Part shown: piece by piece, positions 9,001 to 64,000 of the stretch
Numbering within the stretch: position 1 is the first letter of the stretch
How the letters are laid out: every line of letters starts with the position of its first letter
NCBI RefSeq assembly: GCF_964204865.1
Contig: NC_135252.1
Span: forward strand, 12,152,001-12,216,000
Reading direction: 5' to 3'
Length of the DNA: 64,000 bases
DNA from: Styela clava
Lineage: Eukaryota
Program-made: the position numbers

Positions 9001-12000
9001 GAATCCGGTATTATATATTGTTTGTACATGTAAGCTACTGTGAATTTTGCATCCACTGCAACCTGGAATAAGTCGACTAAATATTCTGAAGTCGAACAGA
9101 TATCACAGGCGCCTGGACAACAATTCAAAAACGCTGAGAGCTCATCATTTTGCCTTTATTCCTTAATTCTACATGTTTACAAACTTTAAAAGACATGCAG
9201 TACACATTAACGATCTCGAAATTGAGTTTTATTTAAACTTAGCAATTTTTTGCGTGTAAGTGTCATGAGTTTTTCCCTGATAATGTGGCGACGCACGAAC
9301 TAAAAGTTTGGGAACCGCTGGATAAAGGCATAAAATTCCCTAGAACTATGCCATACATATAATTTTACAGTTGTTTTCGGACTCGAAAATGGATACTCTA
9401 GCGGTGAATCGTATTTCTTGTAATGCTGAAGAACTCGGCAAAATAACCAGGCAATTACTGAACAAGAACTTTAGAATTTCAAATACTTTCAAATACACAA
9501 AAACTTTTAAAAACTACAATCAAAACGTGTTTAGAGCGAACCGGTAACTTTTAAACAAAAATAAAATGCCAAATATTTAAACAATTACACGAAACGATAT
9601 AGCAAATTTAATATGACTGGTTTTCAAATATACGAATTTTGATAATTTTTTCAAGAATGTGGAAAGTTCTCCTCTATTTTTGCTGCGTAATGACTCTCTA
9701 GTGCTTTTCTCTTCAACTTGAAAGCCGAGGTGATAAGCCCTGCTTCTGGGGTCCAAGGTTCCGGCTCCAGACACAATTTCTGTGGGATCTCAAATTTTTG
9801 CAACTTGGCAATATCGCTGGCTTGTTTAATTGCGTGTTCCATCTCCTTGACCATGCCCTTGTTCTGACATATCTCTTCCATGGTTTCAGACGTGATACCT
9901 TTAGATAACGCTAGCGCCCTGAACGCCTTCTCATTTGGAACTACAAAAGCCATTGATGTTGGATTCATTGAATTGGCATATAGCCAGATATTGTCAACCA
10001 TAGGCGACGCTTTCAATTTGGATTCAATATTACCCACGGCAATGTATTCTCCATGCGACAATTTGACGAGATCCTTTTTCCGATCAATCACTTTGAGGCT
10101 CCCGTCGCTCGCTATTTCTCCAATGTCACCAGTTTTAAACCAACGTTGGCCGTTTTCATCCACATGAAAATCTTCTGCTGTTTTCTGCTCATTCTTATAA
10201 TAACCTTGAGTAACGATGGGACCCCCAATCCACACTTCACCTTGTGGATTGGGCTTGTTTGTTGGAAAGTAACCGCCATCTGCCCATGGAACAAGTTTGA
10301 ACTCTGCACTAGGCAAAGGAGGTCCAACAGTTCCAGTTGAATGGTCAGTTAAGACCTGTGTTATTGTACCAGCACCACAAGTCTCTGTTAATCCATACCC
10401 CTGCCCGACGGGACAACACATGCAGACGTTCATGAAACGCTGAGTTTGAGCATCAAGTGGTGCACCGCCTGACAGCATTATTCTAACTTTACCTCCGAGA
10501 ACTGCTCTTGTGTTTTTAAATATAATTCTATTTAGAATAGGCGTGTCTTGACCATTATTCACGCACCCGAGCTTGTAAGAATAGCCAAAGTTGAATAAAC
10601 CCTGTCTAAGAAAGTTAGCTTCACCAACAGTTTGCATTATTGTCTTCCTCATGCGTTCCATGATTGCTGGAACAGCGGCCATCAAAGTTGGCTGTAAAGC
10701 CGACGAATCTCCTTTCGTGCCCGGTTTTATTCGGAGAGACTTGTCAGTGACTGTTAACGGAGAAGAGTATCCAATCCTGGCACCCCCGCACAACGTCACC
10801 GATTCAGCTGCCAGCTCGAGCACATGAGCCAAAGGCAAGTATGCAATATATGTATCATTTGGCGACAAATTAGGTATTCTGGATGATATTCCAGACATGG
10901 CCGCCACGAAATTTCCGTGACTGATCATGACCCCTTTCGGGTTTCCAGTTGTTCCACTTGTGTACATGATGATCGCGCAGTCGTCGGGGGCAGTCTGCTT
11001 GCGTTTGATATTTTGACCTCTTAAACTTCCCAGATTTTCAACTTCCGCGAAAGTCTTCGTTTGGACATTGTTCGGAATACCACTGATGTCATTACCTGTA
11101 TCTACATACACGATGGTGTTGAGTCGTGGCAAACTAGCAAAGCAGTTTTTTAATTTGGTCGCCAAAAGATTTCCACTTGTTATAACGCATTGTGTTTCAG
11201 TTTGGGCAAGAGCGTATGTAATTCCTTCCTCGCCTAAGGTCGCGTACACGGTAACTAAAGTGAAATTATATCTAAAGCATGCCTGCGCTGCAATCATCCA
11301 TTCTTTTTGTGTTTCCATAAATATAGCAACATTTTGTCCTGCACTTATACCAAGCGCCCCAATGCCTTTTGCAACATTCTCTATTTTTGTGTTGACTTCA
11401 TTAAGTGTCACCCATTTGTAATCGCCGAAAGTCGCCTTTTTCATTACCTTGCCACCAGGTACCACTTCATCAGATTCGGAAATCAGTTCACGAGTTCCAA
11501 AACAAGGATTATTTCCGAATTTACGCACTGCTCTTTCAAACACTTTATCAATGGTTCGCTCGCCATCATAGTTTGAGAACATGAGACTACCAAAACTTTC
11601 TACACATCGATATGACGACCCAGGATCGCCTGGCTTGGTTGGCTTTGCCCTAGGCATTTTTAAATCTAGCTCCGGAAGAATCTGTAAAAAAGAAGAATAC
11701 ATCAATGCTGCATGTTAACAGATACCCTATAATTAAATTAGTATTAGGAAGACTTCGTCATGAAAATAACCATTCCAACGTTCATGGCACGGAATATATG
11801 GAAATAAGTTAATGCAAATATTATTGCGTCGAATACGCTTTTTCAAATAATTGTTTAAAAAATTAGGACTTGAAAGTTGATATCCCGAAAAAATACGATA
11901 CTTGCACGTCGAAGTTCAAAATGTACTTGATGTGCGCATATCACCCAGCAATTTTTTTTATCACTATACGATAGTGTTATCGGAGAAGAGGAAAGACTAT

Positions 12001-63000: not shown

Positions 63001-64000
63001 ACTTCAAGAAGATTGTTAGTGATGGAAAAATGTGAAAAGGAAATAGCGGACTGTCAAACTAATGGGGCTTCTTTTAATAGTGATGCACATAGGGGTCATA
63101 ATGCATTCCGTAACAAATATTTTAAAACTAAATGATATTTTTTGAAGATAAAATCTTTTTGCACTTTCACTCCTGATGAGGCTGCTGACAATAAATTTTG
63201 CGTGGAATTTTTTATAGGTACTGAAGTTTTTTATTAAGAACGTGAATCAGATCAGATACTTACCTGGACATATCAGAATGCTTTTTGAAATCATCGACAC
63301 AATGTGGGTGTTGTGTATTTCTCGAACGTTATAAATATGAAGTGGTGCAACAGCAACTTTGTCAGCAATTTGCTTATAGGAATTCTATTACCTGTTACTT
63401 GAAATATCGTTGTGCATTTATGATTCTTCATATTTTTTCTGCCATTATAAATCAGCCTCAGTTGAATTAGTGCCATACATATGCCTATTTTTAATACACA
63501 AATGTATGTTTTAATTGTACTTCTGACACAATTTTCTAATGCTGGATAGTTTCAGAGGTTTAACTCACTATATTTTTCTGTTCTACACAGTTTGCTAATC
63601 CTACTACCTCAACAAACATTACTAATTTGACAAGGATGACTAAAAAGACTTACCTTGGCTTTGACTTCAGCACACAGCAGGTATATGCTAATTTTGAATG
63701 TCTCGTATAATGAGACAACCCATTTGCACTGACCAGGGGTTAGCAACATCTTCCATATTTTGAATTAAAAAGAGTGTTATTTAATAATATTTGCATAATT
63801 TTAATGAACCATAATCAAACAAGAAATTATGTTATTGCATCTTCTCTGAATATGTTACAGAAATTATTGAAATTTTTCACGCAAAAAGTCACAGGGCTTT
63901 TGGTGTCAAATTTAACACCATTATACACCTTGTTTTGGTGTGCTCAAAGCAATGTCATAAAAACTCCTTTGTGAACAAATAAACTGTTGAGTTGCAAGCA

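What the first reader, a model, noticed from the sequence alone, without database searches (positions are those of the whole stretch)
9651..63135. Four intron-free CDSs of normally intron-rich genes, each with an AG acceptor just before the ATG, mixed among intron-rich neighbours
Seen: ACSL (x2), CHD3/4/5 and TRMT11 are uninterrupted full-length ORFs, while the MBD5-like gene (~22 exons) and XYLB have ordinary introns. Each intron-free CDS has a pyrimidine tract plus AG 25-46 nt upstream of the ATG (11682, 16138, 53654, 61674). Known: vertebrate orthologues have many coding introns. Inference: all-or-none intron loss points to mRNA-derived copies (retroposition with parent replacement, or whole-cDNA gene conversion) that are expressed through an upstream acceptor, either a 5'-UTR intron or a spliced-leader site. 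Retro-derived intronless genes are reported in ascidians, but this density is notable.
Basis: partly seen in the sequence, partly recalled or inferred. Interest (0 to 1): 0.7.

Follow-up and report, generated by a model that had tools for sequence, protein, structure and literature searches.

The report
Intron-free genes in a sea squirt
This stretch of the Styela clava (sea squirt) genome holds four real genes whose coding regions have no introns, next to a neighbour with about 22 exons; this is a known ascidian pattern and the case is fairly ordinary.

Summary
The window is Styela clava. Four full-length ORFs are uninterrupted: two ACSL3/4-type genes, a CHD3/4/5 gene and a TRMT11-like gene. 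Three of them match database S. clava proteins without gaps. Each has a pyrimidine tract plus CAG 24-46 nt before its ATG. Such a site occurs in 9.1% of 60-nt non-coding windows.

Three corrections:
- The two ACSL genes are old sister paralogues with saturated dS, so there are three independent cases, not four.
- The intron-containing XYLB neighbour has the same acceptor about 45 nt before its ATG. The acceptor is therefore a general gene-start feature, not a mark of intron-free genes.
- No retroposition hallmark remains: no poly(A) relic, no flanking duplication beyond controls, and no spliced-leader relic.

Single-exon genes make up 15-38% of Ciona gene classes. Retroduplication with loss of the parent is already published for Ciona. 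Three of five loci being intron-free has a chance of 1-5% at those rates.

Best reading: ancient mRNA-templated loss of all coding introns, expressed through the usual ascidian 5' acceptor. Whether the loss happened in place or by relocation stays open, because no eukaryotic genome or RNA data could be searched.

The parts
9651..11657 (-). ACSL-a: intron-free CDS of an ACSL3/4-type long-chain acyl-CoA synthetase, 668 aa
   Evidence: Colinear with database S. clava protein P0003, with 9 of 668 mismatches and no gaps.
11682..11700 (-). Pyrimidine tract plus CAG acceptor of ACSL-a. The G is at 11682, 24 nt before the ATG.
   Evidence: 13 of 16 pyrimidines. An in-frame ATG at 11702 lies upstream of it.
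16120..16138 (+). Pyrimidine tract plus CAG acceptor of ACSL-b. The G is at 16138, 46 nt before the ATG.
   Evidence: 11 of 16 pyrimidines.
16185..18215 (+). ACSL-b: intron-free CDS of the sister paralogue, 676 aa
   Evidence: Compared with P0002 there are 2 of 676 mismatches and no gaps.
19343..46583 (-). Intron-rich neighbour LOC120342480 (MBD5-like: weak MBD plus PWWP), about 22 coding exons, including one 5.9-kb exon at 32379-38258
   Evidence: The exon map comes from aligning database protein P0122 to the window.
53636..53654 (+). Pyrimidine tract plus CAG acceptor of the CHD gene. The G is at 53654, 25 nt before the ATG.
   Evidence: 12 of 16 pyrimidines.
53680..59223 (+). CHD3/4/5-type chromatin remodeller: intron-free CDS, 1847 aa
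   Evidence: Compared with P0123 there are 5 of 1847 mismatches and no gaps.
61656..61674 (+). Pyrimidine tract plus CAG acceptor of the TRMT11-like gene. The G is at 61674, 27 nt before the ATG.
   Evidence: 11 of 16 pyrimidines.
61702..63135 (+). TRMT11-like tRNA (guanine10-N2) methyltransferase: intron-free ORF, 477 aa
63572..63680 (+). Start of XYLB: acceptor (G at 63590), leader, and first 15-codon exon 63636-63680 followed by GT
   Evidence: The gene name is recalled from the N-terminal motif and was not searched.

Best explanation
These are ordinary, functional Styela clava genes. In three gene lineages every coding intron was erased long ago through a spliced-mRNA (cDNA) intermediate. 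The lineages are an ACSL3/4-type gene that later duplicated head-to-head, the single CHD3/4/5 gene, and TRMT11. I think recombination of the cDNA with the gene at its own locus is somewhat more likely than relocation as a retrogene. In either case the sequence upstream of the mRNA body was not replaced. Each gene is therefore still expressed through a normal 3' splice acceptor 24-46 nt before the ATG. That acceptor is the usual ascidian gene-start arrangement, either a spliced-leader trans-splice site or the end of a 5'-UTR intron, and the intron-containing XYLB neighbour has it too.

Shown: the intron-free CDSs, agreement with annotation for three of the four genes, real-looking and non-random acceptors, and the great age of the ACSL duplication.

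Inferred: the mRNA template, loss in place, and what is spliced onto the acceptors.
For: - The ORFs are uninterrupted and colinear with database S. clava proteins.
- ACSL-a against ACSL-b gives dN 0.16 with saturated dS, so both copies have been under purifying selection for a long time.
- Loss is all-or-none, next to a gene that keeps about 22 exons.
- Acceptor motifs are present at 5 of 6 gene starts, against 9.1% of background windows. P for at least 5 of 6 is 3.4e-5. Their strength falls within the range of 18 true acceptors.
- The intron-containing XYLB has the same acceptor, so it is a general feature.
- A cDNA does not carry the acceptor or its pyrimidine tract. Their presence at all three lineages fits a locus whose upstream part was never replaced (inference).
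- The Clavelina lepadiformis ACSL4-like and CHD3-like proteins both sit on a contig of 24,617,235 nt. This is a weak hint that the linkage is old.
- Literature, passages read: about half, or at least 58%, of Ciona genes are SL trans-spliced (PMC4691747, PMC7986045). Single-exon genes are 15% of Ciona non-operon genes and 38% of operon genes (PMC2760879). Trans-splicing is said to have been described in Botryllus, which is in the same family as Styela (PMC3691228, citing a paper I did not see).
Against: - No direct evidence for an RNA intermediate remains: no poly(A) relic, no flanking duplication and no leader relic.
- Loss in place and relocation make the same predictions for everything I could test. 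Microsynteny and orthologue structures were out of reach.
- Converting a 5.5-kb CDS in one event needs a near full-length cDNA.
- The only published study of ascidian intronless genes that I found cited (Kim et al. 2014; the paper itself is not held) argues for retroduplication with loss of the parent.
- A pyrimidine tract plus AG is a simple motif that selection could create anew after an insertion.
- The LOC120342480 start has no comparable site within 60 nt, so the feature is not universal.
- No paper in the open library pairs 'Styela' with 'spliced leader' (0 papers).
Confidence: 0.5

Rival explanations
1. Retroposition to this locus with later loss of the intron-bearing parent ('orphan' retrogenes, the model published for Ciona). 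Each copy then acquired, or landed just downstream of, an acceptor that lets it be trans-spliced or joined to a host 5' exon.
For: - The CDSs are intron-free.
- The mechanism is reported as relatively common in Ciona. I saw this only in passages citing Kim et al. 2014, in PMC5803294 and PMC5408686.
- Single-exon genes are enriched in Ciona operons, at 38% against 15% (PMC2760879). This fits insertion into transcribed regions.
- A reverse-transcriptase source, an LTR retrotransposon pol, lies in the window at 3-3450.
- Acceptor-like motifs are common enough to arise or be found: 9.1% of 60-nt windows.
Against: - There is no A-rich 20-mer within 1500 nt after any of the 4 stops. The background is 4 in 41,380 nt.
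- The longest flank repeats are 9-11 nt, and 82-192 of 200 controls equal or exceed them.
- The Ciona leader motif gives 4 matches at up to 3 mismatches against 2.9 expected, and none lies at the four starts. Styela's own leader is unknown to me.
- All these marks would have decayed anyway, given the saturated dS.
- ACSL and CHD relatives share one chromosome-sized contig in Clavelina as well.
Confidence: 0.3
2. Gradual attrition: the introns were removed one by one by separate genomic deletions or separate partial cDNA conversions over a long time. The intron-free state is simply the end point in three genes.
For: - Tunicates are described as fast-evolving, with genome compaction and gene loss (passage in PMC5803294).
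- The events are old, which leaves time for many steps.
Against: - Dozens of exact deletions in CHD alone are hard to square with a neighbour that keeps about 22 exons with 0.3-3.5-kb introns.
- The S. clava genome paper describes intron elongation, not shrinkage, and fewer intron-less genes than in Ciona (PMC7540406, passage; supplement not seen).
Confidence: 0.12
3. Ancestral state: these genes never had coding introns in the lineage leading to tunicates.
For: None from my calls. Orthologue structures could not be examined.
Against: - The vertebrate orthologues are multi-exon genes (established knowledge, recalled, not tested here).
- Ciona and Clavelina CHD relatives carry 'isoform X' labels in their source names. 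This suggests CDS-affecting splicing there, though it is only a hint.
Confidence: 0.04
4. Artefact: cDNA contamination or a mis-assembly produced the intron-free stretches.
For: None.
Against: - The ORFs are embedded in continuous non-coding sequence with no N in the window.
- Database proteins, evidently from another S. clava haplotype or individual, have the same length and differ at 0.3-1.3% of residues.
Confidence: 0.01

Closest known systems
Intronless genes of Ciona made by retroduplication and loss of the parental gene (Kim et al. 2014, Dev Genes Evol; seen only as cited in PMC5803294 and PMC5408686)
   Same: [quoted passage not shown] The single-exon SYCP1 of Ciona and amphioxus is a worked example of about 3.2 kb (PMC5803294).
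   Different: Here no relocation, parental relic or retroposition mark could be shown. One case is a 5.5-kb CDS, and one lineage duplicated after the loss.
Reverse-transcriptase (cDNA recombination) model of intron loss (tested in, for example, PMC3652778; listing and abstract seen)
   Same: Introns are removed exactly, with the reading frame kept. Many adjacent introns go at once, and the part of the gene upstream of the mRNA body is left untouched.
   Different: The classic pattern is partial, 3'-biased loss. Here the loss covers the whole CDS. Whether the retained acceptor belongs to a 5' intron or to an outron is unknown.
Spliced-leader trans-spliced genes and single-exon-rich operons of Ciona (PMC1488885, PMC2760879, PMC4691747; passages read)
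   Same: There is a strong acceptor shortly before the ATG. Single-exon genes are common. TRMT11 (single exon) lies directly upstream of XYLB on the same strand.
   Different: Ciona operons have no or under 100 bp of intercistronic DNA. Here there are 454 nt from the TRMT11 stop to the XYLB acceptor AG and about 2.45 kb from CHD to TRMT11. No transcript data exist for Styela in what I could search.
Dinoflagellate retrogenes tagged by DNA-encoded spliced-leader relics (PMC6050394, PMC12014239; abstracts seen in a listing)
   Same: Both are trans-splicing organisms in which mRNA-derived genes would be expected to carry a leader relic at the 5' end. This is the test I borrowed.
   Different: No leader-like relic lies at any of the four starts. 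The test used the Ciona leader.

Membership tests
Processed retrogene with parental replacement | Coding region without introns while orthologues are multi-exon | tested here: inconclusive
   The intron-free CDS is shown. Orthologue exon structures were not available in any tool, so the multi-exon state is recalled knowledge.
Processed retrogene with parental replacement | Poly(A) tract relic after the 3' UTR | tested here: not met
   There are 0 A-rich 20-mers (at least 16 A) in 1500 nt after each of the 4 stops. The longest A runs are 5-9. The events are old, so decay is expected.
Processed retrogene with parental replacement | Target-site duplications flanking the insert | tested here: not met
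   The longest direct repeats between flanks are 9-11 nt. Equal or longer repeats occur in 82, 129, 147 and 192 of 200 control flanks.
Processed retrogene with parental replacement | New genomic position relative to orthologues, and no intron-bearing parent left | not testable with these tools
   No eukaryotic genome collection was open. The only hint is that the Clavelina ACSL4-like and CHD3-like proteins share a 24,617,235-nt contig.
Processed retrogene with parental replacement | Spliced-leader relic at the 5' end, expected if the template mRNA was trans-spliced | tested here: inconclusive
   The Ciona leader motif, taken from PMC7986045, gives 4 matches at up to 3 mismatches against 2.92 expected, and none is near the four starts. 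Styela's leader sequence is unknown to me.
cDNA-mediated intron loss at the gene's own locus | Exact removal of introns with the frame and full-length protein kept | tested here: met
   The alignment to annotated proteins is gapless. All expected domains are present.
cDNA-mediated intron loss at the gene's own locus | Upstream gene part (5' intron or outron acceptor) retained | tested here: inconclusive
   Acceptor motifs are present 24-46 nt before all four ATGs. Whether they predate the loss cannot be told.
cDNA-mediated intron loss at the gene's own locus | Conserved microsynteny with intron-bearing orthologues | not testable with these tools
   No related eukaryotic genomes could be fetched.
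SL trans-spliced ascidian gene | 3' splice acceptor upstream of the start codon with no paired donor upstream | tested here: inconclusive
   The acceptor motif is met. The absence of an upstream donor or exon cannot be judged without transcripts.
SL trans-spliced ascidian gene | Mature mRNA carries the spliced leader | not testable with these tools
   No RNA data were available. One search found 0 open papers holding both 'Styela' and 'spliced leader'.
Ciona-type operon | Same-strand genes with no or under 100 bp of intercistronic DNA | tested here: not met
   TRMT11 stop 63135 to XYLB acceptor AG 63589-63590 leaves 453 nt between them. CHD stop 59223 to TRMT11 acceptor 61674 is about 2.45 kb. 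The criterion comes from PMC2760879 and PMC7986045.

The most novel reading that the evidence does not exclude
In trans-spliced genes the spliced leader at the 5' end of the cDNA has no homology with the locus. Recombination between a full-length cDNA and its own gene can then reach only as far as the trans-splice acceptor. One event would erase every intron downstream and leave the acceptor and outron exactly in place. This would explain three things: all-or-none loss with an acceptor 24-46 nt before the ATG, the lack of relocation marks, and the excess of single-exon genes among trans-spliced or operon genes in ascidians. It predicts that intron-free CDSs are enriched among SL-accepting genes and keep their synteny. 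My last literature search (terms 'spliced leader', 'retrogene', 'retrocop', 'intron loss') listed no paper proposing this among the 20 shown of 387. That is not proof that it is unpublished.
Probability: 0.2. Interest if true: 0.6.

Novelty: new member of a known kind. Interest (0 to 1): 0.25.

Why it matters
If the loss happened in place and is bounded by a trans-splice acceptor, ascidians would offer a clean natural test of the cDNA-recombination model of intron loss, and of how trans-splicing shapes gene structure. As it stands, the locus is one more example of a known ascidian trait. Its main practical use is as a set of clear test cases for RNA-seq or 5'-RACE and for comparing gene structure across tunicate genomes. 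The test cases are a 5.5-kb intron-free CHD gene, a duplicated ACSL pair and TRMT11, next to a 22-exon gene.

Tried and rejected
- XYLB location. I looked for XYLB in 3.4-9.6 kb and 46.6-53.6 kb and found only transposon remnants and nothing coding. Its first exon is at 63636-63680.
- Neighbour ORFs. A Pfam scan of ten mid-sized ORFs between 22 and 50 kb gave nothing useful. The neighbour was solved by finding its database protein instead.
- TRMT11 naming by solved structures. There was no hit at E 0.001 and only generic methyltransferase stretches at E up to 10. The name rests.
I did not repeat it.
- RNA genes. Rfam and tRNA scans of the window gave 0 hits each, so there is no SL RNA gene or other RNA gene here.
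- Flank homology between the two ACSL copies. Only chance-level hits appeared, with best E 0.023, so the flanks cannot show how the duplication arose.
- Papers not held: Matsumoto et al. 2010 and Kim et al. 2014.
- A search for ACSL gene structure in Ciona found nothing relevant (4 papers, none on this).
- An operon reading for CHD-TRMT11-XYLB is rejected on spacing.
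Full report
**What the window is.** The ORF at 16185-18215(+) matches a database protein named long-chain-fatty-acid--CoA ligase 4-like of Styela clava. The CHD ORF matches chromodomain-helicase-DNA-binding protein 3-like of the same species. The matches are not exact. They have 2 mismatches of 676, 9 of 668 and 5 of 1847, all without gaps. The window is therefore S. clava, from another haplotype or individual than the database proteins. 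It has no N and is not human.

**The observation.** One search lists 8 ORFs of at least 200 aa, and the four named genes are among them.
- Pfam confirms two AMP-binding enzymes, a full CHD subfamily-II architecture (CHDNT, two PHD, chromo, SNF2, Helicase_C, DUF1087, CHDII_SANT-like, CHDCT2) and a UPF0020 methyltransferase.
- The last one is placed with tRNA(guanine10-N2) methyltransferase (TRMT11) clusters at 0.99 by the Atlas. Solved structures gave no usable hit.
- For ACSL-a the ORF finder starts at an ATG at 11702. The sequence shows a pyrimidine tract and CAG ending at 11682, and the homologous start at 11657. That start gives the 668 aa of the database protein.
- For ACSL-a, ACSL-b and CHD, the annotated proteins have exactly the ORF length, so the annotated coding regions have no intron.

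**The neighbours.**
- The 2004-aa ORF at 32259-38273(-) has no Pfam family. It is 100% identical over 98% of its length to P0122, 'uncharacterized protein LOC120342480 isoform X2' of S. clava, 2758 aa (1 protein at E up to 1e-5 among 4839 candidates).
- Aligning P0122 to the window gives 19 pieces of at least 90% identity, from 46583 down to 19343 on the minus strand.
- P0122 has a weak N-terminal MBD (20.1 bits against a cut-off of 21) and a clear C-terminal PWWP (E 1e-17). 'MBD5-like' is a fair name.
The map and the domains come from the database protein as stored.
- XYLB is represented only by a 15-codon first exon at 63636-63680 followed by GT. The name rests on my recall of the conserved N-terminal motif and was not searched, because the piece is too short.

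**The acceptors.**
- I defined a site as CAG preceded by at least 11 pyrimidines in 16 nt. The threshold was set after seeing the sites.
- Such a site falls in 7840 of 86403 non-coding 60-nt windows, or 9.1%.
- All four intron-free genes have one 24-46 nt before the ATG (P 6.8e-5).
- Eighteen internal acceptors of LOC120342480 have 9-14 pyrimidines by the same count. The pre-ATG sites (11-13) therefore look like real 3' splice sites.
- XYLB also has one, with 12 of 16 pyrimidines, the G at 63590 and about 45 nt before its ATG. XYLB has an intron directly after exon 1.
- LOC120342480 has none within 60 nt.
- So 5 of 6 gene starts carry the feature (P 3.4e-5), and it is not tied to intron loss.

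This fits what is published for Ciona. About half, or at least 58%, of genes receive a 16-nt leader at an unpaired acceptor, and outrons peak near 100 bp (PMC4691747, PMC7986045, PMC1488885; passages). For Styela itself I found no open paper (0 papers). Trans-splicing in Botryllus, of the same family, is mentioned in PMC3691228 with a reference I could not read.

**How many events, and how old.**
- In a tree of 15 ACSL proteins, ACSL-a and ACSL-b are sisters (99/97). Two unnamed relatives form the next pair. The 15 proteins were the 11 most tunicate-like of the 120 listed hits plus 4 vertebrate outgroups; the rest were left out.
- The two copies are 76.8% identical in protein, with dN 0.16. 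dS is saturated: 2.3 by one method and undefined by two others. Third-position identity is 41.6%, and the flanks cannot be aligned.
- One intron-free ancestor followed by an old head-to-head DNA duplication is the simplest reading. There are therefore three independent cases. ACSL-a is the faster copy.

**Tests for retroposition.**
- Within 1500 nt after each stop there is no A-rich 20-mer. The background is 4 in 41,380 nt.
- The longest repeats shared by the 5' and 3' flanks (9-11 nt) are matched or beaten by 82-192 of 200 control flanks.
- Borrowing the logic used for dinoflagellate retrogenes, which carry leader relics (PMC6050394, PMC12014239; abstracts in a listing), I searched for the Ciona leader. 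There were 4 matches at up to 3 mismatches against 2.92 expected. In 32 of 100 shuffles there were at least 4 matches. None of the matches lies near the four starts.
- These negatives are weak, because the events are old and Styela's leader may differ.

**Base rates.**
- In Ciona, single-exon genes are 15% of non-operon genes and 38% of operon genes (PMC2760879).
- An older count gives 1448 Ciona genes with an intronless CDS, averaging 389 in the paper's length units, against 541 for intron-bearing genes (PMC3155783).
- S. clava is said to have fewer intron-less genes than Ciona. The figures are in supplements I could not open (PMC7540406).
- At per-gene rates of 0.10-0.19, three or more of five independent loci has P 0.009-0.05. 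At 0.05 it is 0.001.
- In a genome of about 20,000 genes (PMC13746493), such windows are expected by chance. The 1847-aa CHD is far longer than the typical intronless gene.

**Mechanism.** Erasing every coding intron while a neighbour keeps about 22 exons points to a spliced-RNA template.
- Relocation as a retrogene with loss of the parent is the published model for Ciona (Kim et al. 2014, seen only through PMC5803294 and PMC5408686).
- Recombination of a cDNA with the gene in place (the reverse-transcriptase model, PMC3652778 abstract) predicts the same CDS.
- I lean slightly to loss in place, for three reasons. A cDNA does not bring an acceptor, yet all three lineages have a strong one at the usual distance. 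No relocation mark is left. In Clavelina the ACSL4-like and CHD3-like proteins share one 24,617,235-nt contig.
- None of these reasons is decisive.
- The Ciona and Clavelina CHD relatives carry 'isoform X' names. This hints that they still have CDS-affecting splicing, so the complete loss may be younger than the ascidian radiation. That is only a hint.

**What stayed unchecked.**
- Expression and the partner of each acceptor.
- Orthologue exon structures and microsynteny.
- Parental copies elsewhere in the genome.
- The TRMT11 annotation.
- The S. clava intronless-gene count, which is in closed supplements.

**Verdict.** The explanation is of a known kind, and the case for something unusual is modest.

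Noticed in passing
window 3-3450 (-): Pol region of an LTR (Ty3/gypsy-type) retrotransposon in two ORFs: 922-3450 holds RVT_1 plus the start of RNase H, and 3-890 holds RNase H plus the integrase zinc domain. The RNase H domain is split across the break near 890-922, and the element runs off the window. It is a possible local source of reverse transcriptase.
   Followed up: partly
window 8295-8522 (+) and 5199-5909 (-): hAT transposase remnants. One is a C-terminal dimerisation domain (E 5.7e-9). The other is a 236-aa ORF with only weak DUF4371 and zinc-finger hits (E about 0.06).
   Followed up: partly
window 32379-38258 (-): A single 5.9-kb coding exon (about 1960 aa, serine/threonine/proline-rich, no Pfam family) sits inside the otherwise finely split MBD5-like gene.
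   Followed up: partly
window 63135-63590 (+): TRMT11 (single exon) lies directly upstream of XYLB on the same strand. AATAAA lies 55 nt after the stop, and there are about 380 nt from there to the XYLB acceptor. This resembles the 'single-exon 5'-most gene' pattern of Ciona operons, but the spacing is too wide for the Ciona criterion (PMC2760879).
   Followed up: partly
window 61691-61720 (+): A 9-codon upstream ORF starts between the TRMT11 acceptor and the main ATG, out of frame, and overlaps the main ATG. The leaders of the other three intron-free genes and of XYLB have no upstream ATG.
   Followed up: no
window 9651-11657 (-) versus 16185-18215 (+): ACSL-a evolves faster than ACSL-b. Its branch is 0.23 against 0.091, and it has 9 of 668 against 2 of 676 differences from the database alleles. 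This suggests relaxed constraint or a new role for one copy.
   Followed up: partly
window 11700-11702 (-): An in-frame ATG lies upstream of the ACSL-a acceptor and extends the mechanical ORF by 15 codons. ORF finders mis-start this gene.
   Followed up: yes
database proteins P0007 and P0125: The Clavelina lepadiformis ACSL4-like and CHD3-like proteins are both listed on a contig of 24,617,235 nt, so they share a chromosome-sized sequence in a distant ascidian.
   Followed up: no
database protein P0006: An unnamed relative of the ACSL pair (681 aa, 70% identical) is listed on a contig of 19,177 nt. If that contig is genomic and the protein was called as one ORF, the intron-free state is shared with another species. 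The contig could not be read, and I did not trace its source.
   Followed up: no
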